Shown here: positions 12,353 through 27,691 of the stretch, in pieces
How positions within the stretch are numbered: position 1 is the stretch's first letter
Layout: each line of letters opens with the position of its first letter
Source: a virus
Strand: one strand, 5' to 3'
Length of the DNA stretch: 64,000 bases
IMG/VR virus record: IMGVR_UViG_3300044701_003563
Translations under genes and position numbers: made by a program
Notes under the pieces: model-generated
Database searches by the model: none
Seen by the model: the letters and a program-made list of their open reading frames with translations, nothing else
What the model was told of the DNA's origin: nothing

Positions 12353-15300
12353 TTATACTCCGAATATGATTGAATAAACTATAGAATCTGTAACTGTTCC
12401 AAATTGATTTATATTTGTTGGGGAATTTGTAGATTTAACAGCATACCCAAAGAAGGAATCTGTAACTTTTGGTGCCTCAACAAATGCGATAGTAATTGGG
12501 TCTGCTGCTTTATTATTTCCACCACCACCAATTTGATTGGTGTTAAATCCACGATTATTTGATGGATCTGGTTCTTGAATAATTCCACCGACAGAAAGTA
12601 TAAATCTTGCCAAACTGTCTATCTCATTATTTATGAATCGTGCAAGATTTCCAGATCCAACAGAATATCCTTGATTTGCAAATAATACTTTATCATATGG
12701 AGTAAATGTAGTTCTAGACCCATCAAACACCTCTTCAAATGCAATTATGACTGTTTGATCTGGAATTGATACTTGTTTTCCTTGTGTTCCTTGTAATCCC
12801 TGATTTCCTTGTGTTCCTTGTGTTCCCTGGAAATTGCTAAGTGCGCCTTGAAGACCTTGCAATCCTTGAACACCCTGGAGTCCTTGAGTTGCTTGAACTC
12901 CCTGATTTCCTTGTAAACCTTGAACACCTTGGACTCCCTGATTTCCTTGAAGACCTTGAACGCCTTGAACACCCTGATTTCCTTGTAATCCTTGGACACC
13001 TTGGACTCCCTGATTTCCTTGAAGACCTTGAACGCCTTGAACACCCTGATTTCCTTGTAATCCTTGGACACCTTGGACTCCCTGATTTCCTTGTAATCCT
13101 TGGACACCTTGGACACCTTGAACTCCTTGATTTCCTTGGAGACCTTGAACACCTTGGACACCTTGGACTCCCTGATTTCCTTGTAATCCTTGGACACCTT
13201 GGACACCTTGAACTCCTTGATTTCCTTGGAGCCCTTGGACACCTTGAACTCCTTGATTTCCTTGAAGACCTTGGACACCTTGGACTCCCTGATTTCCTTG
13301 AAGACCTTGAACACCTTGGAGACCTTGAACTCCCTGGAGACCTTGGACACCTTGGACACCCTGATTTCCTTGAAGACCTTGAACACCTTGATTACCTTGG
13401 AGACCTTGGACTCCCTGAACTCCTTGATTTCCTTGAACTCCCTGGAGACCTTGAACACCTTGGACACCCTGATTTCCTTGAAGACCTTGAACACCTTGGA
13501 CACCCTGATTTCCTTGAAGACCTTGAACACCTTGGACACCCTGATTTCCTTGGACACCTTGGACACCTTGATTTCCTTGGAGACCTTGAACTCCTTGAAC
13601 TCCTTGATTACCTTGGAGACCTTGGGTTCCTTGAACACCTTGAACTCCCTGATTTCCTTGGAGACCCTGAACACCTTGAACTCCTTGAACTCCTTGATTG
13701 CCTTGGAGACCTTGGGTTCCTTGAACACCTTGAACTCCTTGATTTCCTTGGAGACCTTGAACTCCTTGAACTCCCTGATTTCCTTGTAATCCCTGAGTTC
13801 CTTGAACTCCCTGATTTCCCTGGAGACCTTGGGTTCCTTGAACACCTTGAACTCCTTGATTTCCCTGGAGACCTTGGACACCTTGGACTCCCTGATTTCC
13901 TTGTAATCCTTGGACACCTTGGACTCCCTGATTTCCTTGTAATCCTTGGGCACCTTGGACTCCCTGATTTCCTTGTAATCCTTGGACACCTTGGACACCT
14001 TGGACTCCTTGATTGCCTTGGAGACCTTGGGTTCCTTGAACACCTTGAACTCCTTGATTTCCTTGGAGACCTTGAACTCCTTGAACTCCCTGATTTCCCT
14101 GGAGACCCTGAACACCTTGAACTCCCTGATTTCCTTGTAATCCCTGAGTTCCTTGAACTCCCTGATTTCCCTGGAGACCTTGTACACCCTGAGTTCCTTG
14201 AGCACCTTGGAAACCTTGAAGACCCTGTGTTCCTTGAACCCCTTGATTGCCTTGGAGACCCTGAGTTCCTTGAACACCTTGAACTCCCTGATTTCCTTGG
14301 AGACCTTGGACTCCTTGATTTCCCTGTAATCCTTGGACACCCTGAACGCCTTGGAAACCTTGAAGACCTTGTGTTCCTTGAACTCCCTGATTCCCCTGAA
14401 GTCCTTGTGTTCCTTGAACACCTTGGAAACCTTGAAGACCTTGTGTTCCTTGAACTCCCTGATTCCCCTGAAGTCCTTGTGTTCCTTGAACACCTTGGAA
14501 ACCTTGAAGACCTTGTGTTCCTTGAACTCCCTGATTTCCTTGAAGACCTTGAACTCCTTGGGTTCCTTGAGTTCCTTGGAAACCTTGGAGACCTTGAACA
14601 CCTTGAACACCTTGATTTCCTTGGAGACCTTGAACACCTTGGACACCTTGGAAACCTTGAAGACCTTGTATTCCTTGGACTCCCTGATTTCCTTGGAGAC
14701 CTTGAACACCTTGGACACCTTGGAAACCTTGAAGACCTTGTATTCCTTGGACTCCCTGATTTCCTTGGAGACCTTGAACACCTTGGACACCTTGGAAACC
14801 TTGAAGACCTTGTATTCCTTGGACTCCCTGATTTCCTTGAACTCCTTGATTACCTTGAAGTCCCTGAGTTCCCTGGACTCCTTGATTACCTTGAAGACCT
14901 TGAACTCCTTGATTACCTTGAAGACCTTGTGTTCCTTGTACTCCTTGATTACCTTGGAGTCCCTGAGTTCCTTGAACTCCTTGATTACCTTGGAGTCCCT
15001 GAGTTCCTTGAACTCCTTGATTACCTTGGAGTCCCTGATTTCCTTGAACTCCTTGATTTCCTTGTAAACCCTGAACACCTTGGGTTCCTTGATTGCCCTG
15101 AACTCCTTGATTGCCTTGAAGACCTTGGGTTCCTTGGACTCCTTGATTACCTTGAAGACCTTGTGTTCCTTGAACTCCTTGATTGCCTTGAAGACCTTGG
15201 GTTCCTTGAACTCCTTGATTTCCCTGAAGACCTTGGACTCCCTGGACTCCCTGATTGCCTTGGAGTCCCTGAGTTCCTTGAACTCCTTGATTTCCCTGAA

Positions 15301-16894
15301 GACCTTGGACTCCCTGGACTCCCTGATTGCCTTGGAGTCCCTGAGTTCCTTGAACTCCTTGATTTCCCTGAAGACCTTGGACTCCCTGGACTCCCTGATT
15401 GCCTTGGAGTCCCTGATTTCCTTGGAGACCTTGGACTCCCTGGACTCCCTGGACTCCCTGATTTCCTTGAAGACCTTGAACTCCTTGATTTCCCTGGAGA
15501 CCTTGGACTCCCTGGACTCCCTGGACTCCCTGATTTCCTTGAAGACCTTGAACTCCTTGATTTCCCTGAAGACCTTGTATTCCTTGAACTCCCTGATTTC
15601 CTTGGAAACCCTGAAGACCTTGTGTTCCCTGGACTCCTTGATTTCCCTGAAGACCTTGAACACCTTGATCTCCTTGCAATCCTTGAACTCCTTGAGTTCC
15701 CTGGTGTCCTTGAAGACCTTGAAGACCTTGAACACCTTGATCTCCTTGCAATCCTTGAACTCCTTGAGTTCCCTGGTGTCCTTGAAGACCTTGAAGACCT
15801 TGAACACCTTGATCTCCTTGCAATCCTTGAACTCCTTGAGTTCCCTGGTGTCCTTGAAGACCTTGAAGACCTTGAACTCCCTGATTTCCTTGGAAACCCT
15901 GAAGACCTTGTGTTCCCTGGACTCCTTGATTTCCCTGAAGACCTTGAACACCTTGATCTCCTTGCAATCCTTGAACTCCTTGAGTTCCCTGGTGTCCTTG
16001 AAGACCTTGAAGACCTTGAACTCCCTGATTACCTTGGAGACCTTGAACTCCTTGAACTCCTTGAGTTCCCTGGTGTCCTTGAAGACCTTGAAGACCTTGA
16101 ACTCCCTGATTTCCTTGCAATCCTTGAACTCCTTGAGTTCCCTGGTGTCCTTGAAGACCTTGAAGACCTTGAACTCCCTGATTACCTTGGAGACCTTGAA
16201 CTCCTTGAACACCCTGAGTTCCTTGAAAATTACTTAATGCGCCTTGAAGACCTTGAGTACCCTGAGTACCTTGTAAAGCAGTTTTCCAAGAAACAGTTCC
16301 ATCGCCATTTGAATAAAGAAGGTCATCTAAATTCCCACCAAATCCATCTTTATCGTATACTGTTCCGTCTAATTTCAAACTGCCAGCAACATGTAATTTG
16401 GAGTCGGAATATACAATAGTTGTTCCTATTCCTACAGAACCATTAATATATGCTCCACTATAAACTTGAAATAACTGATTTGGTGTTCCAGTTGTTACTC
16501 CAGTTCCTACTCCAATACTTACAGTTCCATTTAAAAATGTTGTAATTCCAGCAACAAATAAGGTTTGTGTCCTTAACTTTTGAATTGCAGCTTCATCAAC
16601 AATTTGCCCCCCAGTAATTTCTGTTGGACCTGCAAAAAATGTTCTTGCAGTAACTACCCCCGTAAAATATCCATCTCCATCGACCCATAAAGCAGCTCCC
16701 TGAGGAGTTTCTGTTCCTATTGCAACTGCATCTGAAAAATATCCTTTTCCTTCTACATGTAAATCTAATATTGCATTATTTGTTCCTACTCCAACTTTAC
16801 CAGCAGCAATCGACAGTACTGTTTCATTTTCCGTATATGAAACAATACCAATATTAACTCTGCGTTGACGATTGCTTAGGTAATTTTTTGCCAT
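12353..16894 (-). CDS. Giant collagen-like fibre protein (Gly-X-Gln)
   Basis: N-terminal VGIGT fibre repeats, 375 in-register G-X-Q triplets and a C-terminal domain ending SIVYSIIFGV. Confidence 0.9.
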   Translation of the reverse strand: MAKNYLSNRQRRVNIGIVSYTENETVLSIAAGKVGVGTNNAILDLHVEGKGYFSDAVAIGTETPQGAALWVDGDGYFTGVVTARTFFAGPTEITGGQIVDEAAIQKLRTQTLFVAGITTFLNGTVSIGVGTGVTTGTPNQLFQVYSGAYINGSVGIGTTIVYSDSKLHVAGSLKLDGTVYDKDGFGGNLDDLLYSNGDGTVSWKTALQGTQGTQGLQGALSNFQGTQGVQGVQGLQGNQGVQGLQGLQGHQGTQGVQGLQGNQGVQGLQGLQGHQGTQGVQGVQGLQGNQGVQGLQGLQGHQGTQGVQGLQGDQGVQGLQGNQGVQGTQGLQGFQGNQGVQGLQGLQGHQGTQGVQGLQGDQGVQGLQGLQGHQGTQGVQGLQGDQGVQGLQGLQGHQGTQGVQGLQGDQGVQGLQGNQGVQGTQGLQGFQGNQGVQGIQGLQGNQGVQGLQGNQGVQGVQGVQGLQGNQGVQGLQGNQGVQGVQGVQGLQGNQGLQGNQGVQGVQGLQGNQGVQGTQGLQGNQGVQGVQGLQGNQGVQGTQGLQGNQGVQGVQGLQGNQGVQGTQGLQGNQGVQGTQGLQGNQGVQGTQGLQGNQGVQGNQGTQGVQGLQGNQGVQGNQGLQGNQGVQGTQGLQGNQGVQGTQGLQGNQGVQGTQGLQGNQGVQGLQGNQGVQGTQGLQGNQGVQGNQGVQGIQGLQGFQGVQGVQGLQGNQGVQGIQGLQGFQGVQGVQGLQGNQGVQGIQGLQGFQGVQGVQGLQGNQGVQGVQGLQGFQGTQGTQGVQGLQGNQGVQGTQGLQGFQGVQGTQGLQGNQGVQGTQGLQGFQGVQGTQGLQGNQGVQGTQGLQGFQGVQGVQGLQGNQGVQGLQGNQGVQGVQGTQGLQGNQGVQGTQGLQGFQGAQGTQGVQGLQGNQGVQGTQGLQGNQGVQGVQGLQGNQGVQGVQGLQGNQGVQGVQGTQGLQGNQGVQGVQGVQGLQGNQGVQGAQGLQGNQGVQGVQGLQGNQGVQGVQGLQGNQGVQGVQGTQGLQGNQGVQGTQGLQGNQGVQGVQGLQGNQGVQGVQGTQGLQGNQGVQGVQGVQGLQGNQGVQGVQGTQGLQGNQGVQGVQGLQGNQGVQGVQGNQGVQGVQGLQGNQGVQGVQGLQGNQGVQGVQGLQGVQGNQGVQGVQGLQGNQGVQGLQGNQGVQGVQGLQGVQGLQGVQGLQGNQGVQGVQGLQGNQGVQGVQGLQGNQGVQGVQGVQGLQGNQGVQGVQGVQGLQGNQGVQGVQGVQGLQGNQGVQGVQGLQGNQGVQGVQGLQGNQGVQGVQGLQGNQGVQGVQGLQGNQGVQGVQGLQGNQGVQATQGLQGVQGLQGLQGALSNFQGTQGTQGNQGLQGTQGKQVSIPDQTVIIAFEEVFDGSRTTFTPYDKVLFANQGYSVGSGNLARFINNEIDSLARFILSVGGIIQEPDPSNNRGFNTNQIGGGGNNKAADPITIAFVEAPKVTDSFFGYAVKSTNSPTNINQFGTVTDSIVYSIIFGV
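12848..16222 (-). repeat. 9-bp tandem repeat array (GGN-NNN-CAR) with higher-order 72-bp units
   Basis: 3375 nt = 375 triplets between two GALSNFQ motifs; 72-bp blocks recur at 15661, 15733 and 15805. Confidence 0.95.
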
Positions 16895-17260: not shown

Positions 17261-20200
17261 TTAATCTCCTCCTAATGCTAGGATAAATGGTGTCATAGTT
17301 GCAAACAAACTCTTGGAATAAAAATCACCAGTAATAGATCCTGTAGTTTGATTAATAATTACACCGTCACCAATTTTAAAGTTTCCTGCTTGATCTGTGC
17401 TTGTGTAAACAACTAATCCACCATTACGAGCATCAGTTTCATTTTCTGGAATAGGAACTCCTCCCAATCTAGGCAAACATTTATCTATATCAATTCCCGT
17501 ACCAATATATTCAAGTGAATGTCCAGATGCCAATACTCTACTTTGTTTATAAAATGGAACTTCTGTTCCAACACCAACAAAATAAGGAACATTTTCTCCT
17601 ACAGTTATTGTTGTAATTCCTGAAGAAACTTCTGTTGCTTCAGTAATTACATAATAAGTTGGAGTAAGTTCTACTATTGCTGTAGCTGTATTTATTCCAC
17701 TTTGAGGTCCAGTAATTGTAATTTTTGGAGGAATCTTATATCCTCTTCCACTGGATACGAGTTCAATATTTGTTATTGATCCACTTCGTATTTCAGCAAC
17801 CGCTTGAGCTGGAATTCCCCATTCAACCTCTGGAGATTCAAAAGATAATGTTGGAGGTTCCGAATATCCACTTCCTGAATTTAAAATAATTACATTTTTT
17901 ACAGTATAATAAAGATCCTCAAAATAAACTACTTGTCCGTTGAAAGGTCTTATGACATCAATCTTTGCAGTTCCACCAGAAACATAATAGTGTTCAAATG
18001 GAGCAGTGCCAACATATGCTGAAAACACAGTACTTGCTGCAGATACTGATGGAAGAGGAGATATATTCAAATCTGCATTAAAAATTGCAGTTGTAACTAT
18101 TCCAACTAAATTATCAATATAAGATTTAACATTAGAGCAAGAGTTTTCACTATTATTACTCTGAGTAGTTGGATCTTCAATTAAATCAAAATTCTTCTTA
18201 TTCAACTGATTATTAATTGCAAGTTTCATGTAATCTCTTGCAGATTCAAAAGAAGTGATTGTTTGTGGTATTTCATTCTCAATGCTGTTATCGAGAGATC
18301 CATCCAAATTAAAATAAAATTTAGTTGCGTCAATTGTGTTCTCATTAGTATAATCTCTTACATCAAGAGATACATAATCAATTAAATAACCAATATCTCT
18401 ACGACACTTTGATAATCCTAAGGAATATATTCCTTCATTTATTGGTGGCAGTTCAGTAAGATCTGAGGAAACAATTACAGAAGTAACAATTCCAGTAAGA
18501 GTATCAATTGTATTTCTAACATTTGTACAAGATGTTGGATTTTTATTAGAAGTAGTTCCTATTCCTGGATTTGAATCTGTAGTGAGAGTAAGATCTTGTA
18601 TATTTAATTGATTAGTAATTGCTTTCTTTGAAAATTCAGATGCCTGCATGAATACATAAACAGATTCTGATTCTTCCCCGAGCAATGCCGTTGTTGCAGA
18701 ACCAACATTATTAAAATATTGCTTTGTAAACTCAGAAGCATAATAATTTCCGCCAACAAATAAATCAGTTGCGATTGCATCGACAAAATATCTCGTATCC
18801 CTTATGCACTTATTGGTTGTAGAAATTCCCAGGTTCTCATTGAATGTTGATAAGAATGCGGTTGTTCCAACTCCAATTACATTAGTGGATATTGCAACTA
18901 ATGTGTCTATATTATTTTGAACATCAATACAAGAATTTGCATTTCCTGATGGAAAAACTGGAATATCATTACCTGCTCCAAGATATTCTGCAGTTCCAGA
19001 AGATATTCCAATAGTTTTGATATTTAATTGATTTGTAACTGCTCTTTTAAATAGATCTCTTGCGGCATTAAATGCAGTTATTGATTGAGATTCTTCATTA
19101 ATCAATCCATTGGAAATTGGTTGACCAGTTTGAGCATCAAAATACTGTAATGTAAAATCTCTTGAATACTTATTTCCACCTGTAAATAAATCTGTTGCAA
19201 TTGCATCTATAAAATATCCAAGATCTCTCGCACATTTTAATCCTCCAGGAGAACTGGTTGTTCCTATTCCTGCTAAAGTATGAGGTAATACATTAGTACT
19301 ATCTTGAACATAATACCCAAAATTTTGTGGTGGAAGTGACAGTAAATTTCCATTATCAATTACCGAAGTTATGATTCCAACTAAGTTATCAATATTGGAA
19401 CGAACGTTTGCACATGAGTTTGGATTTGTGTTTGATCCAGTTAGTGGGTCTACAGTTATTGTTAAATCACTATAAGCAGCACCGACAAGAGTGTTGGTAA
19501 TAGCATCTTTCATCAACTGCTTTGCTTGTTCAAAAACATAAATGGATTCTGATTCTTCTCCAAGTAATCCATTATTTGTAGGATTTCCATCAGCATCAAA
19601 ATAAAATTTTGCAAATGCTATAGAATAACTATTACCACCTGTGAATATATCTGTCGAAACTGCATCAATGAATAAACCAGTATCTCTCTTACATTTATCC
19701 ATTACAGCAGCAAAGTCAGTCCCAGCAAATCCTGGATTATTGACTGCGGAAGTAAAAGCAATAGAAACTATTACGTCTTTATTATTTTGAATTAAACGAT
19801 ATGAATCTGCATATCTTGATCTTGCATTTGTTTGATTATCGCCTGGAAAATAAAAATCTGAATGAGCAATTGCTACAGCAGCAAGTGACTTATCAATAAT
19901 TTCTTGTCTATTCTTTTGAATTAAACCAGATCCATCATAAAATCTTGATCTCTCATTAGTTTCTGGTTCATCTGGAAAATAGAAGTCTGATGGAAATCCT
20001 ACTGCAAGTTTTGATGCTGCTTTGTCAGCAATTTCTCTTTGATTTTGCTTAATAAGACGATATGAATCATAATATCTAGATCTATCAGTTGTTTGCTCAT
20101 CTCCAGGTAAGTAAAAATCTGGATAATTTAATGCAATAGATGCTAGTGCCTTATCTTGAATTTCTTTCTTATTTGCTTGAATAGAATTATATGCATCATA

Positions 20201-21301
20201 ATATCTTCCAGGAGCAACAATAAACGGTTCAAATATGTACCCATAATTGCCCGTAGGATATTCAAGTTGTGTGATCCCTCCATCAGAACTGCAAGTAAAT
20301 GCAAGTCCCACAATTGAAACTCCAACACCTACTTTAAAATTGTGTTCTTGGTCCGTATATGCAGTTAAAATTCCAGTTGTATGATCATATATTGCATTCG
20401 TGATATTTAAAGTTGGTACAGTTAAATCAATTACAAATTGATCTGTACTTGTACCTCCCTCAACTATTGTTCCAGTGTATTTTTTTGGACCAACACCATC
20501 TGCAACTAAAGCATAATTTCCAAAAGAAGAGTTTGAGTTTGTTAGATCGCAAGCACCACCCGACCCACAAAAAACTGCTATGTCGTCACAAATTGTAAAT
20601 AAAGAAACTAGCTGAGCATACCCTTCATTTGTAATAGAAACTCCTATACCACCTTGATTATATTGAGTATATGAGTCAAGAACCATTGATTTTAAAGGTC
20701 CTATGGCATAAGTACCATCGACCTTCATTCCTATACTATTCGGAATAAAATTTGTGCAGTTTTGAATGTATGGAGATTGATTAAAATAACCTACCTTTTC
20801 TGGGTTAAACGTAAAAATTGCTTTTCCTGGATTTAAAGATCCAGTATATGACATCTCCGCAACATAATTTCCATTTGCAACATAAAATAAATCCTTATCT
20901 GGATTTAAAGGTGATACTGTAACTTCTCTTAAACTGTCTCCAACTACACTAACCTGACTTGGCAGTGCTATTGGATTGTCTTCCAAATAAATACCAGCAC
21001 TTACTTTTATAACCGTTCCAGTTTCTGATGCATCTACTGCAGATTTAATCGTTGCCTTTGCATCTCCAAGTTTTTTTCCAGTATTATTATCGTTTCCGTC
21101 CTTTGTTACGTATAAAATATTGGTTACTGTTGCACCAGCACCAATTCTAACTATATCGGGAACAAATCCTACTCTTTCTCTACGAGCATATAACTCAATA
21201 TCATTAGTATTTAAAGCCAATTCACCTAATTGGAGTTGTCCTAAACTTGGCTTACTCCCTGGTGTTGTTGATCGTTTAATACGAATTATTGGTCTTGTCA
21301 T
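17261..21301 (-). CDS. Large virion fibre protein: beta-helix scaffold with four phycobiliprotein-like helical repeats
   Basis: N-terminal IRIKRS...GELALN fibre anchor; YVTKDGND...TIKSA...SPYIQNCTNF...SNSSFG beta-helix; KCxRD x4; ends TPFILALGGD. Confidence 0.75.
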   Translation of the reverse strand: MTRPIIRIKRSTTPGSKPSLGQLQLGELALNTNDIELYARRERVGFVPDIVRIGAGATVTNILYVTKDGNDNNTGKKLGDAKATIKSAVDASETGTVIKVSAGIYLEDNPIALPSQVSVVGDSLREVTVSPLNPDKDLFYVANGNYVAEMSYTGSLNPGKAIFTFNPEKVGYFNQSPYIQNCTNFIPNSIGMKVDGTYAIGPLKSMVLDSYTQYNQGGIGVSITNEGYAQLVSLFTICDDIAVFCGSGGACDLTNSNSSFGNYALVADGVGPKKYTGTIVEGGTSTDQFVIDLTVPTLNITNAIYDHTTGILTAYTDQEHNFKVGVGVSIVGLAFTCSSDGGITQLEYPTGNYGYIFEPFIVAPGRYYDAYNSIQANKKEIQDKALASIALNYPDFYLPGDEQTTDRSRYYDSYRLIKQNQREIADKAASKLAVGFPSDFYFPDEPETNERSRFYDGSGLIQKNRQEIIDKSLAAVAIAHSDFYFPGDNQTNARSRYADSYRLIQNNKDVIVSIAFTSAVNNPGFAGTDFAAVMDKCKRDTGLFIDAVSTDIFTGGNSYSIAFAKFYFDADGNPTNNGLLGEESESIYVFEQAKQLMKDAITNTLVGAAYSDLTITVDPLTGSNTNPNSCANVRSNIDNLVGIITSVIDNGNLLSLPPQNFGYYVQDSTNVLPHTLAGIGTTSSPGGLKCARDLGYFIDAIATDLFTGGNKYSRDFTLQYFDAQTGQPISNGLINEESQSITAFNAARDLFKRAVTNQLNIKTIGISSGTAEYLGAGNDIPVFPSGNANSCIDVQNNIDTLVAISTNVIGVGTTAFLSTFNENLGISTTNKCIRDTRYFVDAIATDLFVGGNYYASEFTKQYFNNVGSATTALLGEESESVYVFMQASEFSKKAITNQLNIQDLTLTTDSNPGIGTTSNKNPTSCTNVRNTIDTLTGIVTSVIVSSDLTELPPINEGIYSLGLSKCRRDIGYLIDYVSLDVRDYTNENTIDATKFYFNLDGSLDNSIENEIPQTITSFESARDYMKLAINNQLNKKNFDLIEDPTTQSNNSENSCSNVKSYIDNLVGIVTTAIFNADLNISPLPSVSAASTVFSAYVGTAPFEHYYVSGGTAKIDVIRPFNGQVVYFEDLYYTVKNVIILNSGSGYSEPPTLSFESPEVEWGIPAQAVAEIRSGSITNIELVSSGRGYKIPPKITITGPQSGINTATAIVELTPTYYVITEATEVSSGITTITVGENVPYFVGVGTEVPFYKQSRVLASGHSLEYIGTGIDIDKCLPRLGGVPIPENETDARNGGLVVYTSTDQAGNFKIGDGVIINQTTGSITGDFYSKSLFATMTPFILALGGD

Positions 21302-21321
21302 TGAAGATAAGGTTCCCTAAG

Positions 21322-21345
21322 TCCCTATCGATAGGGAGTTTTTTT
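21322..21345 (+). terminator. Perfect 16-bp palindrome followed by a T-run (plus-strand terminator-like, or leader hairpin of the 21301 gene)
   Basis: TCCCTATCGATAGGGA at 21322-21337, then GTTTTTTT. Confidence 0.45.
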
Positions 21346-21353
21346 ATTATTTA

Positions 21354-21530
21354 TCAGAAATCATCAGATCCATTATCTACAGACGCAGTTGACTGTATGG
21401 ATCTTTGAAGATCTTCAACCTGTTTTTTTAATTGTGCAATCTGCGTTTCAAGCAGAACGTTTGCATTGAAAAGATCAAATGATCTTTGCTGATATACAGA
21501 AAGTAATGACTTATAATCTTCTTCTGTCAT
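21354..21530 (-). CDS. Small coiled-coil hypothetical protein (58 aa; below the ORF-track cutoff)
   Basis: MTEEDYKSLLSVYQQRSFDLFNANVLLETQIAQLKKQVEDLQRSIQSTASVDNGSDDF*, preceded by a perfect late promoter. Confidence 0.8.
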   Translation of the reverse strand: MTEEDYKSLLSVYQQRSFDLFNANVLLETQIAQLKKQVEDLQRSIQSTASVDNGSDDF

Positions 21531-21551
21531 GATATTATATAAACTCTGACC

Positions 21552-21559
21552 TATTTATA
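21552..21559 (-). promoter_or_regulatory. T4 late promoter
   Basis: Exact TATAAATA. Confidence 0.75.
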
Positions 21560-21560
21560 G

Positions 21561-22352
21561 TCAATAAAATCCACCGTCTATAGAAATATTTTCCAAATTT
21601 CTTTCTGAATTTGAACAAGAAATAACTTGAGATTCTCCAGAACAATCACTGAGCCATAAACCACTTATTACCATTGGTGCATAAACAACTGATGATGTAT
21701 CTATGATTGGATCTGTTGTTGCAGCACCAAATTCATTTGCTATAATGGAAACATTTGATGCTATTCCAATTCTACCAGTACTATCATCCCAAAAAATTCC
21801 AGATCTATATCTAGTATTTGATTTATAATAATTAAATAATACGCCCAAATCCCATGTGGTATTTGATGGGGAAATAGTTCCCAATCCTACATTAAAAATT
21901 CTTGCTTGAGTGTCAAAAATTTCTGTATTAAACTTTGAAGATGTTCCACCTACAGAAATATCTCCGTCTACTTCAATTTCTCCAGATAAAACTGGATCAA
22001 TAATTCTATTTGTCCAAAATAAATTTCCATCTCCATCAGTGGAAAGAATATAATCATTAATAGGAGCTGGTGGTAAATAATATCTAAAAGTAGACGGGAC
22101 ATTAGAGGGTGCTCTTAACCCAATAAAGTTTGCTCCGTTATCAGTATTTTCATATAAGTTTATTCCACCACCAGATCCAGAAGATTCCCTTCTCCAGTAT
22201 CTATCGGAACCAAAAAACCTATTTCCAAACAGAGTTCCATCAAATCCAATATAAAAGTCTCTAGTATCTGTAGTTACTCCAGGTTCTCCTAATGCCAATC
22301 CAGGAAGATCTGAATAAGCACCTCTTTTAAATTGAATTACTGGCAGTGGCAT
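21561..22352 (-). CDS. Short fibre-like virion protein
   Basis: N-terminal IQFKRG...LALGEPGVTTDT anchor-type motif; LPPAP..YILSTDGDGNLFW; ends IDGGFY. Confidence 0.65.
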   Translation of the reverse strand: MPLPVIQFKRGAYSDLPGLALGEPGVTTDTRDFYIGFDGTLFGNRFFGSDRYWRRESSGSGGGINLYENTDNGANFIGLRAPSNVPSTFRYYLPPAPINDYILSTDGDGNLFWTNRIIDPVLSGEIEVDGDISVGGTSSKFNTEIFDTQARIFNVGLGTISPSNTTWDLGVLFNYYKSNTRYRSGIFWDDSTGRIGIASNVSIIANEFGAATTDPIIDTSSVVYAPMVISGLWLSDCSGESQVISCSNSERNLENISIDGGFY

Positions 22353-22354
22353 AA

Positions 22355-22696
22355 TTAAAATCCTCCAGCATCGGTATCAATTCTATCGTCGAGATCTTGA
22401 TCCATACGATCGAGGAAGGAAGTTGCATAACCAACAAATCCAGGTTGTATTGTTTCTGTTTCTGCTGCAGCAGTGAACACTTTATCTGGATTAACAGCTT
22501 TCCATTTTCCAGTTGCAGCATTATACATTAAAACATATTGATCATTTGTATCTTCACCATCAAAATCTACTAAATCTGAAAATCTTGCTGGCACTCCTAC
22601 ACCCCCCGTTTGAACATTAACTTTAAATTTTTGTTCTGGTCCTATTTTGATGTTAAAACTTTGAGAATTTGTTTTTGTTACTTTAAAATCTGTCAT
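22355..22696 (-). CDS. Hypothetical virion protein
   Basis: SDLVDFD...YVLMYNAATGKWKA fibre motif; ends DAGGF. Confidence 0.6.
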   Translation of the reverse strand: MTDFKVTKTNSQSFNIKIGPEQKFKVNVQTGGVGVPARFSDLVDFDGEDTNDQYVLMYNAATGKWKAVNPDKVFTAAAETETIQPGFVGYATSFLDRMDQDLDDRIDTDAGGF

Positions 22697-23034
22697 AGTG
22701 ATGTACTATCGTTTACTATGATTGATCCTTCAACGACCTTAACAGTATAACCAGTATTTTGATCGACAAGAAAAACATCAAAATAATTTCTACCAGAAGA
22801 TAAATCAGCGGTATCAGTTCTCCCCATCGAGATTTTTACTGATGGAGAATTTACATTTCCAATTACTTCCGTGGTAAATGATTTTGATCTTATTGCTGTT
22901 GGATGCTTTCTAATTTTGGAAACTGCGTCATAATTAACTAAAGAAACAGGACCATTATCTGGTCCAGACACATTAAATGTAGCACTAAAATCAGTGCCTT
23001 TTTCCAAACTTATATTTACAACAGCAACTGACAT
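22693..23034 (-). CDS. Hypothetical virion protein (BppU-N/Ig-like)
   Basis: KGTDFSATF...GRNYFDV...VVEGSI. Confidence 0.55.
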   Translation of the reverse strand: MSVAVVNISLEKGTDFSATFNVSGPDNGPVSLVNYDAVSKIRKHPTAIRSKSFTTEVIGNVNSPSVKISMGRTDTADLSSGRNYFDVFLVDQNTGYTVKVVEGSIIVNDSTSL

Positions 23035-23053
23035 TGTTCTGAGATTTTAGAAC

Positions 23054-23061
23054 TATTTATA
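23054..23061 (-). promoter_or_regulatory. T4 late promoter
   Basis: Exact TATAAATA 20 nt upstream of the 23034 ATG. Confidence 0.75.
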
Positions 23062-23067
23062 ATTTAA

Positions 23068-24594
23068 TTATGGATATTGTCTCGTATTTATTCCAACTGC
23101 CGCTGGTAAATGTGGTAGTGTATTTGGAGGAATAAGTCCAAAAGTATCTGCCCAATTAACTAAAAGATTATAATATTGTCCAGGAGCAGTTCTAGCGGAG
23201 TTTGTCCAAACTGGCCATCCATTGTTTCTATTTTCAGTTATCGATGCATTTGGATTAAAATCATAATAATTAACTGTTACAGTCTGCCCATTTATAGTTT
23301 TTTGTTGAGTCGATAATCTTTGACCCCCATACTCCCTAACTATAAATTGATTTCTTGCAACAAAAAGAATTCTTACATGCCCACATCCACCGTTACCAGC
23401 AAAAGGAGTTTCAGTTCCAGCTTGTCCACTTGTCTGAGCAGCACCTCCTCCGCCACCATACAATCCACCATTAGGTCTTACCTCTGGAACTGAAAACTCA
23501 TTATCAACACTTCCATTAAATCCCCTTAAACCATTTCCATTTGAAAGATTTTTATAATTTTCATTAATAAGAGGATCTCCAAAAAATGCACCCGAAACGA
23601 AATAATCAGTATCTAATATAACTTCCGTTCCTGTTGCTCTACCATCAGCACCAAAAGAACCTCCCTGTCCACCTCCTCCAGTATTTCCAGAAGATAACGT
23701 TAAAACTCCACCATCTATAACAGATCCATTAAAGAAATAATATGCTTTTTTTCCATTTGGACCCACTCCCCAAAATACTCCTACACCACCTCCACCTCCT
23801 CCAGAGTCTGCTCCTCCACCACCACCCCACATTCCTCCACCACCACCTCCGCCTTGACCATCTTGAGATTCTTGAGTGCCAGCAGTTCCACCATTTCCTC
23901 CATTACCAAACCATCCTCCAGCACCTCCACCACCGCCATCTTGTCCACCACCAACTCCACCCTGAACACCACCATTACCACCATTACCACCTCCAATAGT
24001 TCCCCATGCAAATGTTCCAACTGCGGATCCAGTTCCACCTTGATTTCCAGATGTAATTGCTCTGGCATCTTGCTTAGGCAAAGCGGATTCATTAAATTGA
24101 GTCGTTCCATTCCTAGAATCAATTCTTATTGAATCTGTAACATAAAAATCTTGCCCCCCACCTTGAGCAAAAACAATTATTGTTCCTCCTATACCAGTTC
24201 TACCAGGAACACTTGCATTATTATCTGAAGCAATATAACTAGTTTGCCCAGGACGACCCCATGAAGCATCCCATCCAAGTTGATCAACAACTAAGGTGTG
24301 ATTGCCAGTTCCACCAACTCCAGCCTTTACTCTTAGAATTTCCCCAGGAACTACTGGCATACTATTAATCCAACGAAGTCCACCTCCTCCACCCCCAACA
24401 CCAGGAGTTTGATTGTTTCCTGCACGGCCACCTCCACCTCCACCAATACAAACTGCAGTTATACTTGTAATTCCAGCAGGAACCTGCCACAAATATTCCC
24501 TAGTTGAACAAGCAAAACTTACTTCACCTATAACTGGAAACTTTGTTGTGTCAAGTATATAATGAATTCCACCTTGAGCATCTGGACCTGGCAT
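23068..24594 (-). CDS. Glycine-rich virion protein (adhesin/fibre tip-like)
   Basis: WQVPAGITSITAVCIGGGGGG...VVPGE...GGGGG...GHVRI: polyglycine-sandwich phage adhesin pattern. Confidence 0.7.
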   Translation of the reverse strand: MPGPDAQGGIHYILDTTKFPVIGEVSFACSTREYLWQVPAGITSITAVCIGGGGGGRAGNNQTPGVGGGGGGLRWINSMPVVPGEILRVKAGVGGTGNHTLVVDQLGWDASWGRPGQTSYIASDNNASVPGRTGIGGTIIVFAQGGGQDFYVTDSIRIDSRNGTTQFNESALPKQDARAITSGNQGGTGSAVGTFAWGTIGGGNGGNGGVQGGVGGGQDGGGGGAGGWFGNGGNGGTAGTQESQDGQGGGGGGGMWGGGGGADSGGGGGGVGVFWGVGPNGKKAYYFFNGSVIDGGVLTLSSGNTGGGGQGGSFGADGRATGTEVILDTDYFVSGAFFGDPLINENYKNLSNGNGLRGFNGSVDNEFSVPEVRPNGGLYGGGGGAAQTSGQAGTETPFAGNGGCGHVRILFVARNQFIVREYGGQRLSTQQKTINGQTVTVNYYDFNPNASITENRNNGWPVWTNSARTAPGQYYNLLVNWADTFGLIPPNTLPHLPAAVGINTRQYP

Positions 24595-24618
24595 AAATTA
24601 ATTCCTCTTAAAATAATA

Positions 24619-27315
24619 TTATGGTGATACCTTAGAATAATAAACTATTGCTTTCAATCCCTTTCCTCCAGTTCCTATTCCAGTAATATCAAATCTTAAT
24701 TGATCATTTCTATTTAAAACTTGATTTGGGAATGTTGTTGGTGAATTTAAGAGAGTTGGGGTATTAACAAATCCAGTTTCACTTTGGTAGTTTCCTACTG
24801 CGATATTTGCTACTGTTGTCCGACTTGAGTATATACTTGTCCAAGAATTAAAGGAAGCTGGGCTAGCATTTCTATCTGCATATAAAACATCTACACTGGT
24901 AATTCCAACAACTGCAGCAGATGAAAGTGAAATTGTTGGTGGTTCTGTAATTCTACACTTAAATGGAACCCTAAATGTTACTACACTTGTTCCAATTCCA
25001 ATGTTTGTAAATTCATCTCCAAGTGCAACAATCAAAGATGTTTCAGAGTTTCCACCCTGAAGGCCCTGAACTCCTTGATTTCCTTGAACTCCCTGTAATC
25101 CTTGAAGTCCTTGTCTGCCTTGGGTTCCTTGAGCACCTACAAATGACACTACTAAATTAAATTGATCATTAAGAACGGGAGATCCATTAGAACTAATTTT
25201 CGTTACAAAATAACTTCTGAATGCTGCTCCATCAGTAATTCTATTGGTAACAAAGAATGAAGCAAAAGTATTAGAGTCTCCAATTTTTGTAAACGTAAAG
25301 ATAGCTTTTTGTGGATTATTTACAGCCTCAACGGCATCCAGTATCGATACAATTGAATTTCCTTCAAAATCAGTTTCGTCTATTGCAAACTGAGTAAAAG
25401 CTCCAGTCCAGGCAGTGCTAAGTCTAAAATATCCATTTCCAGTAGGATCTGCTATTGTCTGTACAGTATCATATAAGAATTTACCACCCAATTGTTTTGC
25501 TGCCGCAAGACCTTGAATTCCTTGAAGACCTTGAACACCTTGATTTCCTTGTCTTCCTTGAAGTCCTTGAATGCCTTGAACACCTTGAACACCTTGTCTA
25601 CCTTGTGTTCCTTGGAATCCTTGAGCACCTTGAGGACCTTGAAGACCTTGAAGACCTTGTATAGAAATATCTCCAACATTAACCCATGTTGTTCCATTGG
25701 CTTGCAATACCCAGACTTCATTGGTAACACTATCAACAACACCATTTCCTGGTTGAGCACCTGGAAAAGTAGCTGTTAAGTAAGTGGATGGATCTGGAGA
25801 CTGTGAGGAAATATTTGCGGCTGTTCCAATAATAATAATAGAAGTTCCAATTCTTCCTTGAATACCTTGATTTCCCTGAACACCTTGATTCCCCTGAACA
25901 CCTTGAAAACCTTGTGTTCCTTGTATTCCTTGTCTTCCTTGGAATCCCTGATTTCCTATAGTTCCTTGTGTTCCTTGTCTTCCTTGAACACCTTGAGTTC
26001 CTTGGAAGTTTCCAATTTGACCTTGAACTCCTTGAAGACCTTGCCTTCCTTGGAGACCTTGATTAAAACTTTGACCAGAAACGCCTTGATTTCCTTGCAG
26101 TCCTTGCAGTCCTTGAACGCCTTGTTCTCCTTGAAGACCTTGTAAAGATCCAGAAAGACCTTGAAGACCTTGGACACCTTGGAAATTACTTAGTGGACCT
26201 TGAACGCCTTGGGATCCTTGTGTTCCTTGAACACCTTGAGAAGTTCCTGAAAAACCTTGACTGCCTTGAATTCCTTGAACTCCTTGACCACCTTGCCTTC
26301 CCTGAAGACCTTGAACTCCTTGAACTCCTTGAGCACCTTGTCTACCTTGAGTTCCTTGGAAGTTTCCAATTTGTCCCTGAACGCCCTGTGTTCCTTGATT
26401 TCCTTGAGCACTTCCAGGAAATCCTTGGGCACCTTGAAAACCTTGATTACCCTGAATACCTTGCCTTCCCTGAAGACCTTGAACTCCTTGAACACCTTGA
26501 AGACCTTGCCTTCCTTGTGTTCCTTGGAAATTACTTAATGGACCCTGAACACCTTGAAGACCTTGAACACCTTGATCTCCTTTAAATACTGCTTGTCCAG
26601 ATATTCCCTGAAAACCTTGGTTGGACAATCCTTGCAATCCTTGCAATCCTTGTTGACCATTAACACCTTGGGTTCCTTGGAAATTACTTAAAGCTCCTTG
26701 AACACCTTGATCTCCTCTAATACCTTGATTTGCAATTCCTTGAACACCTTGGTATCCCTGAGATCCTATTGTCCCTTGGAATCCTTGAGTTCCTTGTGGT
26801 CCTTGAACTCCTTGATTTCCCTGAAGACCTTGAAGACCTTGAGTACCTTGTCCACTTGCTGTTCCCTGAGTTCCTTGGAAATTGCTAAGTGCTCCTTGCA
26901 GTCCTTGAGTTCCTTGTCTCCCTTGATTTCCCTGAAGACCTTGAGTTCCCTGTCTCCCTTGGGTTCCTTGGAAATTACTCAAGGCACCCTGTAGACCCTG
27001 CATACCTTGGGTGCCTTGATTGCCTTGCATACCTTGAGAACCCTGAGTTCCCTGCAGACCTTGAATGCCGTCAGTATCCAAATCAAATGGATCGATCCAA
27101 TATCTTCTCGGATCTCCAGGTCTAGCTGCTAAAACATAAGTTGATCTTGGAAGTCCCAATCCTGGCGGATTATTACCAGTAGATGCGATACCAACCGAAG
27201 GATCACCAAGATGAGGTTCAACCTGATCTAATCCAATGTAACTATATCTATCACTGGTAATTCCAGTTGCATCTCTTCTGAGAGATCTTCCTGTGTTGTA
27301 TCTATTTCTTGTCAT
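24619..27315 (-). CDS. Collagen-like fibre protein (interrupted Gly-X-Gln)
   Basis: Three GXQ segments separated by globular knobs; repeated G(A/P)LSNFQ and GQIGNFQ interruptions; C-terminal ...RNDQLRFDI domain. Confidence 0.85.
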   Translation of the reverse strand: MTRNRYNTGRSLRRDATGITSDRYSYIGLDQVEPHLGDPSVGIASTGNNPPGLGLPRSTYVLAARPGDPRRYWIDPFDLDTDGIQGLQGTQGSQGMQGNQGTQGMQGLQGALSNFQGTQGRQGTQGLQGNQGRQGTQGLQGALSNFQGTQGTASGQGTQGLQGLQGNQGVQGPQGTQGFQGTIGSQGYQGVQGIANQGIRGDQGVQGALSNFQGTQGVNGQQGLQGLQGLSNQGFQGISGQAVFKGDQGVQGLQGVQGPLSNFQGTQGRQGLQGVQGVQGLQGRQGIQGNQGFQGAQGFPGSAQGNQGTQGVQGQIGNFQGTQGRQGAQGVQGVQGLQGRQGGQGVQGIQGSQGFSGTSQGVQGTQGSQGVQGPLSNFQGVQGLQGLSGSLQGLQGEQGVQGLQGLQGNQGVSGQSFNQGLQGRQGLQGVQGQIGNFQGTQGVQGRQGTQGTIGNQGFQGRQGIQGTQGFQGVQGNQGVQGNQGIQGRIGTSIIIIGTAANISSQSPDPSTYLTATFPGAQPGNGVVDSVTNEVWVLQANGTTWVNVGDISIQGLQGLQGPQGAQGFQGTQGRQGVQGVQGIQGLQGRQGNQGVQGLQGIQGLAAAKQLGGKFLYDTVQTIADPTGNGYFRLSTAWTGAFTQFAIDETDFEGNSIVSILDAVEAVNNPQKAIFTFTKIGDSNTFASFFVTNRITDGAAFRSYFVTKISSNGSPVLNDQFNLVVSFVGAQGTQGRQGLQGLQGVQGNQGVQGLQGGNSETSLIVALGDEFTNIGIGTSVVTFRVPFKCRITEPPTISLSSAAVVGITSVDVLYADRNASPASFNSWTSIYSSRTTVANIAVGNYQSETGFVNTPTLLNSPTTFPNQVLNRNDQLRFDITGIGTGGKGLKAIVYYSKVSP

Positions 27316-27320
27316 TTATC

Positions 27321-27689
27321 TTACTGTTTTGCAGTTTCTAATACACTTAAAACGGACTCAAGTTTCCAATTTTCCGATGCGGAAATGAAAAGAACATCAC
27401 CAGTTTCCAAAGCAAGTCTTCCATCACCAACAATATTATATCCATCATTTGGAGGAATAATTACTCCATTTGATAATTTAAAGCTGACAACTCCAGTCAC
27501 TGGATCTGGATCCCTTGCATGTAAAGCAGTTATACTTGATATTCCAACAGAATTTCCCGTAGAAACATTGGTAATTTGCCAATTAATAATAATACTAGCA
27601 ACACCAATAGGACAAGTATAAATTCCAACATTATTTGTTGTAACTCTTGTTCTAATTGTTCTAAATTTATTAAGTGCAATTGCTGCCAT
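27321..27689 (-). CDS. Small virion protein, paralog of 16897..17256
   Basis: MAAIALNKFRT...YTCPIG...QITNV...GRLALETGD...SVLETAKQ. Confidence 0.75.
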   Translation of the reverse strand: MAAIALNKFRTIRTRVTTNNVGIYTCPIGVASIIINWQITNVSTGNSVGISSITALHARDPDPVTGVVSFKLSNGVIIPPNDGYNIVGDGRLALETGDVLFISASENWKLESVLSVLETAKQ

Positions 27690-27691
27690 TT

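What the first reader, a model, noticed from the sequence alone, without database searches (positions are those of the whole stretch)
18080..20206. Phycobiliprotein-like domains with both bilin-attachment-like cysteines inside a phage virion protein
Seen: the 1346-aa protein has four repeats, KCKRDTGLFIDAVSTDIFTGG, KCARDLGYFIDAIATDLFTGG, KCIRDTRYFVDAIATDLFVGG and KCRRDIGYLIDYVSLD (Cys537/690/832/966). Each is followed by an amphipathic helix (e.g. SITAFNAARDLFKRA) and a second Cys helix (SCANVRSNIDNLVGII, SCIDV, SCTNV, SCSNV). Four RYYDA/RYADSYRLIQNNKDVIV-type helices precede them. Known: the alpha-phycocyanin chromophore site reads KCARDIGYYLR..TY.L.AGG (Cys84-x-Arg86-Asp87). Beta-phycocyanin has an N-terminal RLDAVNRITSNASTIV helix and a second bilin site, DCSAL.SE...YFD (Cys153/155). 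All of these landmarks occur here in the same order. Some cyanomyoviruses also encode bilin enzymes (Ho1, PcyA/PebS) and CpeT-like lyases; none are in this window. Inference: the virion may display globin-fold phycobiliprotein-derived domains, possibly chromophorylated. They could serve light-dependent adsorption, photoprotection or host mimicry, and could be a phage-encoded lyase substrate.
Basis: partly seen in the sequence, partly recalled or inferred. Interest (0 to 1): 0.93.

Follow-up and report, generated by a model that had tools for sequence, protein, structure and literature searches.

The report
Nested phycobiliprotein domains in cyanophage fibre
A tail-fibre protein of a virus of cyanobacteria contains four domains, nested inside one another, that are true relatives of the host's light-harvesting pigment proteins and keep the residues of both pigment-attachment sites, so it can now be tested whether the virus particle carries pigment and senses light; pigment binding itself is not shown.

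Summary
ORF 17261-21301 (-), 1346 aa, has four RYxD helix repeats, then four KCxRD units that each carry a second Cys.

These are real phycobiliprotein (PBP) relatives:
- Homologs pass Pfam PF00502.
- Two separate pieces match 30 real PBPs collinearly (hhalign P about 1e-5 each).
- The AF2 model matches PBP beta chains at Z 15-17.

The architecture is nested. Each RYxD repeat supplies helices A-B and each KCxRD unit supplies helices E-H. Repeat k pairs with unit n+1-k. Evidence:
- Repeat and unit order is a balanced-bracket word in all 134 proteins with equal counts.
- A split-chain model scores 0.81 against 0.00 for controls.

The domains are beta-type. The near-invariant residues are those that hold the two bilins in CpcB/CpeB: Asp39, Cys82-Arg84-Asp85 and Cys153.

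In a 17-phage panel, the units co-occur with the T-type lyase gene cpeT. That gene lies just upstream of the fibre gene in S-PM2 and Syn1. Phages that adsorb only in light have the units; P-SSM2 and P-SSP7 lack them.

Bilin attachment is untested; I put it at about 0.45-0.5.

I found no paper on this. The scan's notes list the same family in eight other genomes.

The parts
17261..21301 (-). Whole gene: 1346-aa tail-fibre / baseplate-attached protein (P0001)
   Evidence: Open frame. PHROG tail-fibre, short-tail-fibre and virion-structural families, E 1e-182 to 1e-33. The homolog in phage B3 is annotated as a tail fibre protein.
20213..21301 (-). N-terminal domain, aa 1-363: right-handed beta-helix, tailspike-like
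   Evidence: AF2 is confident for aa 1-200 only. The best Foldseek matches are phage 7-7-1 tail fibres (E 7.8e-4) and polysaccharide lyases, at low TM. Homologs P0063 and P0115 carry PF07602.
20081..20212 (-). A-B helix repeat 1 (aa 364-407, RYYD); partner of E-H unit 4, the outermost shell
   Evidence: hhalign of the repeats against PBPs: P 8.7e-6, columns 37-76. Split-chain contacts link aa 374-380 with 971-978 and 1024-1028.
19949..20080 (-). A-B helix repeat 2 (aa 408-451, RYYD); partner of E-H unit 3
   Evidence: Split-chain contacts link aa 413-428 with 836-848 and 887-890.
19820..19948 (-). A-B helix repeat 3 (aa 452-494, RFYD); partner of E-H unit 2
   Evidence: Split-chain contacts link aa 459 and 468 with 706 and 750.
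19715..19819 (-). A-B helix repeat 4 (aa 495-529, RYAD); contiguous with E-H unit 1, the innermost complete domain
   Evidence: VIA aligns model 133-290 (aa 492-649) to PBP beta chains 32-172, Z 15-17, rmsd 2.0-2.5 A.
19343..19714 (-). E-H unit 1 (aa 530-653): KCKRD (Cys537) and SCANV (Cys630)
   Evidence: hhalign puts KCKRD on Cys82-x-Arg-Asp. Cys630 corresponds to beta-153/158.
18863..19255 (-). E-H unit 2 (aa 683-813): KCARD (Cys690) and SCIDV (Cys791)
   Evidence: phmmer aligns aa 677-716 to alpha-phycocyanin residues 70-110.
18458..18826 (-). E-H unit 3 (aa 826-948): KCIRD (Cys832) and SCTNV (Cys925)
18068..18427 (-). E-H unit 4 (aa 959-1078): KCRRD (Cys966) and SCSNV (Cys1055)
17264..18067 (-). 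C-terminal domain, aa 1079-1346, shared with the paralogue at 27692-32197
   Evidence: PHROG 17885 and 3442 match the C-termini of both proteins. The array-less homologs in P-SSM5 (617 aa) and S-SRM01 (619 aa) have room for only the N- and C-terminal parts.

Best explanation
The gene encodes a tail-fibre or baseplate-attached protein of a T4-like cyanophage (family Kyanoviridae). Its nearest isolates are freshwater and estuarine Synechococcus phages.

Between an N-terminal beta-helix domain and a C-terminal domain lies a rod of four globin-fold domains that descend from a beta-type phycobiliprotein (CpcB/CpeB-like). The four domains are nested. On the way out, the chain lays down helices A-B of domains 4, 3, 2 and 1 (the four RYxD repeats). 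On the way back, it lays down helices E-H of domains 1, 2, 3 and 4 (the four KCxRD units). The array is therefore a hairpin insert, and its two ends meet at its base.

Each domain keeps the residues that hold the two bilins of a beta subunit: Cys82-Arg84-Asp85, and Asp39 with Cys153.

My best reading is that bilins are attached covalently to these cysteines in the infected cell. Host lyases would do this and, where present, the phage T-type lyase CpeT. The fibre would then act as a light-responsive element in adsorption.

How firm each step is:
- Supported by sequence statistics and structure prediction, not by experiment: homology to PBPs, about 0.97.
- Supported by domain-order counts and a split-chain model, not by experiment: nested topology, about 0.9.
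- Inferred: covalent bilin, about 0.45-0.5.
- Inferred: light-gated adsorption, about 0.3.
For: Homology to phycobiliproteins:
- Six homologs score 26.5-39.1 bits on PF00502, over the 22.2-bit cut-off.
- The only PDB hits of the family profile are PBPs.
- hhalign against 30 real PBPs: complete unit P 2e-5, A-B repeats P 8.7e-6, E-H units P 2.1e-5, collinear.
- The AF2 model (pLDDT 82.5, pTM 0.83) matches beta chains at VIA Z 15-17, rmsd 2-4 A, 133-158 residues aligned. Foldseek gives prob 1.00 and TM 0.58-0.74.

Nested topology:
- A-B and E-H counts are equal in 112 of 120 homologs. The clearly truncated proteins are among the exceptions.
- The order of the two elements is a balanced-bracket word in 134 of 134 proteins with equal counts, and in 13 of 13 distinct patterns, where 2.4 are expected by chance.
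- In a split-chain model, aa 362-493 against aa 655-1080 scores ipSAE 0.81. The best of 3 controls scores 0.00, the runs share at least 83% of contacts, and partner pLDDT is at least 76. On calibration that mark was reached by 58 of 80 solved complexes and 2 of 110 mismatched pairs; these counts hold only roughly here because my own alignment was used. The lowest-error contacts pair repeat 1 with unit 4, repeat 2 with unit 3, and repeat 3 with unit 2. This pass may owe something to likeness to solved PBP folds.
- Array-less homologs exist.

Bilin-site residues:
- Cys537-type 99%, Arg 99%, Asp 99% and the second Cys 100% of 485 unique units.
- The RYxD Asp is kept in 100% of 446 unique repeats. 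It falls on the column that is Asp39 only in CpcB/CpeB.
- The second Cys falls on beta-Cys153.

Linkage to the lyase gene:
- 17-phage panel: units and cpeT together in 11, units alone in 2, neither in 4, cpeT alone in 0. Fisher p is 0.006, or 0.022 with same-species records merged.
- cpeT lies 0.7-1.5 kb upstream of the unit-bearing giant fibre gene, on the same strand, in S-PM2 and Syn1. By coordinates this also holds in S-RSM4 and S-CAM1.

Phenotype:
- P-HM1 and P-HM2 do not adsorb in the dark. Adsorption of S-PM2 is light-dependent and independent of host photosynthesis. P-SSM2 and P-SSP7 adsorb in the dark (PMC6628666).
- The first three phages carry units and cpeT; the last two carry neither.
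Against: - No bilin attachment has been measured, here or in any paper I could find.
- This record (61% complete) and its nearest isolate B3 have no cpeT. ACG-2014d has none either.
- P-SSM2 and P-SSM5 carry a bilin reductase and heme oxygenase but no unit. The phage bilin genes are therefore not explained by the fibre alone.
- The units of P-SSM4 have lost the Cys, so the fold can serve without it.
- The B-E loop, which in PBPs carries Arg77 and Arg78, is 9 residues shorter in the contiguous unit. There are no dedicated X-Y helices.
- Two invariant cysteines per domain in an extracellular protein could instead form disulfides between shells or subunits.
- The phenotype match rests on four independent phages. 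The co-occurrence test is not corrected for phylogeny; among myoviruses only, with species merged, p = 0.066.
Confidence: 0.45

Rival explanations
1. Pigment-free structural rod. The domains descend from a host phycobiliprotein but now serve only as a rigid, extensible spacer in fibres and baseplate proteins. The conserved Cys, Arg and Asp have been taken over for folding, for packing between shells, or for disulfides that form after lysis.
For: - The module varies freely in number, from 1 to 34 per protein, as a length-setting building block would.
- P-SSM4 units lack the Cys.
- B3, ACG-2014d and this record have no cpeT.
- Both cysteines of each unit lie in the modelled interface with the A-B chain.
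- I found no report of pigmented cyanophage particles.
Against: - The residues that are 97-100% conserved are the bilin ligands of both beta-subunit sites. A pure scaffold at 13-20% identity to PBPs has no evident need for them.
- In real beta subunits, positions 82 and 153 each carry their own bilin and are far apart (established structures, from memory). A disulfide within one domain is therefore unlikely.
- The cpeT adjacency and co-occurrence would be coincidences.
Confidence: 0.4
2. Intracellular role before assembly. The many PBP-like domains act inside the infected cell as a sink or decoy for host bilins, lyases, NblA or linker proteins, and their presence in the virion is incidental.
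For: - Cyanophages carry other genes aimed at the phycobilisome, such as nblA and cpeT (abstract; PMC2984593).
- The bilin-site residues are kept.
Against: - The domains sit inside late structural proteins with tail-fibre and baseplate parts, not in small early proteins.
- The nested rod architecture and its variable length point to a structural part of the particle.
- They lack the X-Y helices that PBPs use to pair and to enter discs.
Confidence: 0.07
3. Chance or convergent likeness: an unrelated helical bundle that happens to contain a KCxRD string.
For: - The single-sequence scores are weak: PF00502 at 20.9 bits, below its cut-off, and PDB phmmer at E 0.28.
- Helical folds often give middling Z scores (note).
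Against: - Two independent segments match the right, successive parts of the PBP profile, each at P about 1e-5.
- Homologs pass the Pfam cut-off.
- Z 15-17 over 133-158 of about 172-177 residues, at rmsd down to 2.0 A. Among the listed rows, every VIA match and every Foldseek hit with TM over 0.5 is a PBP; the non-PBP Foldseek rows have TM about 0.1.
Confidence: 0.02

Closest known systems
Phycobiliprotein beta subunits (CpcB, CpeB, cryptophyte beta chains; Pfam PF00502)
   Same: - Same globin-type fold with helices A, B, E, F', G and H (Z 15-17).
- Same Cys82-x-Arg-Asp motif in helix E.
- The beta-only Asp39 column and a long G-H loop ending in a Cys at the beta-153/158 position.
- The NGL motif after helix F'.
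   Different: - 13-20% identity.
- No dedicated X-Y helices, and no sign of alpha/beta pairing or disc assembly.
- The B-E loop is shortened in the contiguous unit.
- The domains are part of a 1346-aa virion protein and are split and nested.
- Bilin attachment is not shown.
ApcE (core-membrane linker) phycobiliprotein domain with its PB-loop
   Same: It is a natural PBP domain interrupted by a large insert between helices B and E. In four cyanobacterial genomes PF00502 matches ApcE in two pieces, positions 2-54 and 67/68-154, with about 66 aa between them in one case. The phage domains are opened at this same loop.
   Different: In ApcE the insert is a loop in a single domain. Here the insert is another whole PBP domain, recursively, up to many levels.
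Phage T-type bilin lyase CpeT (PF06206) and host CpcT/CpeT
   Same: T-type lyases serve the beta-153/155 cysteine (established knowledge). The phage gene sits just upstream of the unit-bearing fibre gene in S-PM2 and Syn1, and co-occurs with the units.
   Different: It is not part of this window or record. Its action on these domains is a hypothesis.
T4-type baseplate and short-tail-fibre proteins (gp7-, gp10- and gp12-like) and beta-helix tailspikes
   Same: - PHROG tail-fibre and baseplate-wedge families match.
- Homologous modules sit in proteins annotated gp7, short tail fibre and tail protein.
- The N-terminal domain is a beta-helix.
   Different: I found no report of a globin-fold or PBP-like module in T4-type fibres or baseplate proteins (literature searches).

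Membership tests
Phycobiliprotein family (Pfam PF00502) | Sequence match to the family profile at or above its curated cut-off | tested here: inconclusive
   This protein scores 20.9 bits against a 22.2-bit cut-off. Six homologs of the same family score 26.5-39.1 bits. hhalign against 30 real PBPs gives P 2e-5 for the complete unit, 8.7e-6 for helices A-B and 2.1e-5 for helices E-H.
Phycobiliprotein family (Pfam PF00502) | Globin-type fold with helices A, B, E, F', G and H | tested here: met
   AF2 model aa 492-649 against beta chains 32-172/177: VIA Z 15-17, rmsd 2.0-4.1 A, 133-158 residues aligned. Foldseek gives prob 1.00 and TM 0.58-0.74.
Phycobiliprotein family (Pfam PF00502) | Cys82/84 with Arg and Asp two and three residues on, in helix E (main bilin site) | tested here: met
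   KCxRD aligns on aClRD. Cys, Arg and Asp are each kept in 99% of 485 unique units.
Beta-type phycobiliproteins (CpcB/CpeB) | Second bilin site: Asp39 in helix A/B and Cys153/155/158 in the G-H loop | tested here: met
   The Asp of RYxD (100% of 446 repeats) falls on the column that is Asp only in CpcB/CpeB. The second Cys (100%) falls on beta-153/158, both by the ends of the VIA ranges (model 290 = chain 172 or 177) and by a low-confidence hhalign tail.
Phycobiliprotein family (Pfam PF00502) | N-terminal X-Y helix hairpin that pairs alpha with beta | tested here: inconclusive
   There are no dedicated X-Y helices. In some VIA alignments the place of chain residues 1-32 is taken by the preceding A-B repeat (model 106-133).
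Phycobiliprotein family (Pfam PF00502) | Covalently bound bilin | not testable with these tools
   This needs co-expression with bilin synthesis genes and lyases, or mass spectrometry of virions.
Phycobiliprotein family (Pfam PF00502) | Assembly into (alpha-beta)3 discs and phycobilisomes with linkers | not tested
   Not expected for a domain buried in a virion protein. No test was run.
Phage tail fibre / tailspike proteins | Homology to virion fibre or baseplate families, and a place in a fibre gene cluster | tested here: met
   PHROG tail-fibre and short-tail-fibre families at E 1e-182 to 1e-33. Neighbours are collagen-like fibres, an Mtd_N-type protein and an LtfC-like protein. The N-terminal beta-helix resembles phage 7-7-1 tail fibres at E 7.8e-4.

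The most novel reading that the evidence does not exclude
The cyanophage particle carries covalently bound bilins on nested phycobiliprotein domains of its fibres and baseplate. The phage lyase CpeT has these domains, not host antenna proteins, as its natural substrate. Light absorbed by the fibre gates adsorption. That would make this a virion-borne photoreceptor and would explain the light-dependent adsorption of S-PM2 and P-HM1/2.
Probability: 0.3. Interest if true: 0.95.

Novelty: new variant of a known kind. Interest (0 to 1): 0.86.

Why it matters
Two old puzzles in cyanophage biology become directly testable.

First, some cyanomyoviruses attach to cells only in the light, independently of host photosynthesis. 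The published guess is 'light-sensitive receptors or tail fibres' (PMC6628666).

Second, these phages carry a bilin lyase gene, and some carry bilin synthesis genes, even when the host has no phycobilisome. The benefit is called unclear in PMC2984593.

A fibre built from pigment-protein domains that keep both attachment sites offers one concrete answer to both. The family is large:
- 895 clusters at 50% identity.
- Matches in 397 phage records, against about 423 records that carry psbD.

Apart from pigment, the recursive domain-in-domain architecture is an unusual way to build a rod. Its two ends come out together, so it can be inserted into or removed from a fibre without breaking the fibre.

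Tried and rejected
- Single-sequence searches were too weak to decide (Pfam below cut-off; PDB phmmer E 0.28). I moved to profiles and models.
- The window's own record has no bilin reductase, CpeT or heme oxygenase. It is only 61% complete, so this shows little.
- It also lacks gp23 and gp20, so I could not use them as markers.
- Sampling IMG/VR by psbD gave mostly short fragments and was dropped.
- A simple 'equal counts per A-run/E-run block' test failed on the wider set (56 equal, 78 unequal), for two reasons. Truly nested patterns are not simple blocks, and a separate tandem class has few detectable A-B repeats. I replaced it with the balanced-bracket test.
- Mapping which repeat and which unit are 'extra' in 5+5 proteins could not tell antiparallel from parallel pairing. 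The split-chain model settled that.
- The N-terminal model is poor beyond residue 200.
- Literature searches returned no paper on these domains: 'phycobiliprotein-like' with cyanophage, PF00502 with phage, and 'phycocyanin-like' with phage gave no hits; the tail-fibre and virion/globin searches gave 2 and 9 papers, none judged relevant from title and abstract.

Full report
**What is there.** The finding lies in one open frame, window 17261-21301 on the minus strand, 1346 aa.
KCxRD occurs at Cys537, 690, 832 and 966.
- A second Cys sits in an S-C-x-[ND]-V helix start at 630, 791, 925 and 1055.
- Four R[YF][YA]D helices start at 366, 409, 453 and 496.
- The protein belongs to phage tail-fibre, short-tail-fibre and virion-structural PHROGs. 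It lies among collagen-like fibre genes and other fibre-type genes.
- The record is a 128-kb fragment (61% complete) of a cyanomyovirus that carries psbA and psbD.
- The nearest isolates are the freshwater/estuarine phages B3 and S-SRM01.

**Is the likeness to phycobiliproteins real?** Yes.
- On this protein alone the signal is marginal: PF00502 at 20.9 bits against a 22.2-bit cut-off, and alpha-phycocyanin as the only PDB hit at E 0.28.
- Many of the 511 homologs carry a precomputed PF00502 hit. Six that I rescanned score 26.5-39.1 bits.
- A profile of 55 homologs finds eight PDB sequences at E < 1, and all are phycobiliproteins.
- I fetched 30 true phycobiliproteins from five cyanobacterial genomes and ran profile-profile alignments.
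  - The complete unit aligns at P 2e-5, with KCKRD on the Cys82-x-Arg-Asp motif.
  - The 44-aa RYxD repeats alone align to columns 37-76 (helices A-B and the following loop) at P 8.7e-6.
  - The KCxRD units alone align to columns 80-147 (helices E to G) at P 2.1e-5.
  - These are two independent pieces falling on successive parts of one fold.
- AlphaFold2 on aa 360-1085 gave pLDDT 82.5 and pTM 0.83.
- Foldseek's only hits with TM over 0.5 are phycoerythrin and phycocyanin beta chains (prob 1.00, TM 0.58-0.74).
- VIA-align gives Z 15-17, rmsd 2.0-4.1 A and 133-158 aligned residues. Model 133-290 (aa 492-649) matches chain 32-172/177.

**Architecture.** The structural match shows that the last RYxD repeat supplies helices A and B. 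The KCxRD helix is helix E and the second-Cys helix is helix H. Only the fourth repeat plus the first unit are contiguous. The other three repeats and three units must pair across the sequence. Four lines of evidence show they pair in nested, antiparallel order.
- Among 120 homologs, the number of repeats equals the number of units in 112: 4/4, 5/5, 3/3, 6/6 and 7/7. The clearly truncated proteins are among the exceptions.
- Over 266 proteins, write A for a repeat and E for a unit. The order is a balanced-bracket word in all 134 proteins with equal counts, and in all 13 distinct patterns (2.4 expected by chance). These include non-trivial patterns such as AAEAAAEEEE and A10-E7-A2-E5. The same block structure is seen in B3, S-CAM1, Syn1, S-PM2 and S-RSM4.
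- I ran a split-chain prediction (ESMFold2) of aa 362-493 against aa 655-1080.
  - It scored ipSAE 0.81 (runs 0.83, 0.81, 0.69) against 0.00 for the best of three controls. At least 83% of contacts were shared between runs, and partner pLDDT was at least 76.
  - In the tool's calibration the mark was reached by 58 of 80 solved complexes and 2 of 110 mismatched pairs. These counts hold only roughly here, because my own alignment was used.
  - The lowest-error contacts join aa 374-380 to 971-1028, aa 413-428 to 836-890, and aa 459/468 to 706/750. That pairs repeat 1 with unit 4, repeat 2 with unit 3, and repeat 3 with unit 2.
  - Because these are pieces of a known fold, the pass may owe something to memory of solved structures. 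It shows the pairing, not an affinity.
- The P0001 homologs in P-SSM5 (617 aa) and S-SRM01 (619 aa) have no array, and neither genome has any unit. In P-SSM5 the match covers only the N- and C-terminal parts of P0001. This is what a hairpin insert whose ends meet would allow.

The opened loop, between helices B and E, is the same loop that carries the PB-loop insert of ApcE. PF00502 matches ApcE in two pieces, positions 2-54 and 68-154.

**Which kind of phycobiliprotein, and what is conserved.** The domains are beta-like.
- The best structural matches are beta chains.
- The invariant Asp of RYxD (100% of 446 unique repeats; Arg 97%, Asn 100%) falls on the alignment column that is Asp39 in every CpcB/CpeB. 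That column is Glu or Gln in alpha subunits and Arg or Lys in allophycocyanins.
- Like beta subunits, the units have a long G-H loop that ends in a Cys. By the ends of the VIA ranges (model 290 = residue 172 in phycocyanin beta, 177 in phycoerythrin beta), Cys630 falls on residue 153 or 158. A beta-only hhalign puts it on Cys153 in its low-confidence tail.
- In 485 unique units the first Cys, the Arg and the Asp are each 99% conserved, and the second Cys is 100% conserved.
- From established C-phycocyanin structures (my knowledge, not a tool result), Asp85/87 and Asp39 bind the pyrrole nitrogens of the bilins at beta-82/84 and beta-153/155. The most conserved polar residues of the phage domain are therefore the ligands of both beta-subunit bilin sites.
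- In more distant units the Cys and Asp persist while the Arg varies (CKTD, CxDD). The units of P-SSM4 have lost the Cys.

**Links to bilin attachment and to light.** None of this is in the window itself: the record has no bilin reductase, CpeT or heme oxygenase.
Units and cpeT occur together in 11 and units alone in 2 (B3 and ACG-2014d). Neither is present in 4, and cpeT alone in none.
- Fisher p is 0.006, or 0.022 with same-species records merged, or 0.066 for myoviruses only. It is not corrected for phylogeny. 'Only with CpeT' is therefore wrong, but the association is suggestive.
- In S-PM2 and Syn1 the gene order is a conserved small gene, cpeT, a 2OG-Fe(II) oxygenase, the giant unit-bearing 'short tail fibre', then gp12, all on one strand. 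By coordinates the same closeness holds in S-RSM4 and S-CAM1. T-type lyases serve the beta-153/155 cysteine (established knowledge).
- For phenotype, PMC6628666 reports that P-HM1 and P-HM2 do not adsorb in the dark. It reports that P-SSM2 and P-SSP7 do. It also reports that the light dependence of S-PM2 does not rely on host photosynthesis and might lie in receptors or tail fibres.
- I predicted that the first group would carry units and the second would not, and then checked. P-HM1 and P-HM2 have three units each plus cpeT, and S-PM2 has nine plus cpeT. P-SSM2 and P-SSP7 have none. This is four independent phages, so it is a lead and not proof.
- Against a simple story, bilin reductase and heme oxygenase occur only in the Prochlorococcus phages of the panel. 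These include P-SSM2 and P-SSM5, which have no units.

**Verdict.**
- Homology to beta-type phycobiliproteins and the nested architecture are well supported.
- Covalent bilin and light sensing are inferences that I put at roughly 0.45-0.5 and 0.3.
- The main rival is a pigment-free rod whose cysteines serve packing or disulfides. I could not measure Cys-Cys distances. In real beta subunits the two positions carry separate, distant bilins, which argues against a disulfide within one domain.

**Novelty.**
- The family is large: 895 clusters at 50% identity, with up to 34 units in one protein. Matches to P0001 occur in 397 phage records, against about 423 records with psbD.
- I found no paper that describes it.
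- The scan's own notes report the same family in eight other genomes. My results agree with them on fold, beta type and nesting. They correct one claim.

Noticed in passing
window 27692-32197 (-): A 1501-aa paralogue shares P0001's C-terminal domain and has two or three divergent PBP-like units. Their motifs are NCEDD (about aa 360) and DCRDD (about aa 520) instead of KCxRD, and they have their own second-Cys helices. The same CxDD variant occurs in S-RSM4, S-PM2 and Syn1.
   Followed up: partly
proteins P0128-P0162 (metagenomic giants): 86 giant proteins carry 8-34 E-type units but few or no detectable A-B repeats, at a spacing of about 190 aa. They look like a plain tandem class beside the nested class, possibly with diverged A-B helices.
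   Followed up: partly
HQ632825.1 (P-SSM5) 122648-125654; locus L198: The array-less homolog of this protein (PRTG_00154, 617 aa) lies about 550 bp downstream of the phage heme oxygenase gene on the same strand, with one small ORF between them.
   Followed up: no
NC_006820.1 (S-PM2) 163952-177267, locus L217; NC_015288.1 (Syn1) 19938-33236, locus L218: A 2OG-Fe(II) oxygenase gene sits between cpeT and the giant unit-bearing fibre gene in both phages. A protein-modifying role on the fibre is conceivable but untested.
   Followed up: no
NC_006820.1 (S-PM2) 168556-173383, locus L217: The RefSeq record lists 16 tRNA features inside the giant fibre ORF, yet the frame is open over 3792 aa there. This looks like a coordinate error in that record.
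   Followed up: no
window 12353-16894 (-) and 24619-27315 (-): Two collagen-like fibre proteins (1513 and 898 aa) match dozens of tail-fibre PHROGs. The local G+C rises to 45% against about 33% elsewhere, and long spurious ORFs appear on both strands over the repeats.
   Followed up: no
window 21561-23034 (-) and 23068-24594 (-): Small genes upstream of P0001 carry fibre-type signatures: an Mtd_N N-terminal motif (26.7 bits), an LtfC-like beta-sandwich (weak) and a glycine-rich domain. Together with P0001 they form a receptor-binding gene cluster.
   Followed up: no
panel of 17 phage genomes (W01-W17): Bilin reductase (PF05996) and heme oxygenase (PF01126) occur only in the Prochlorococcus-infecting phages of the panel and in none of the Synechococcus phages.
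   Followed up: partly
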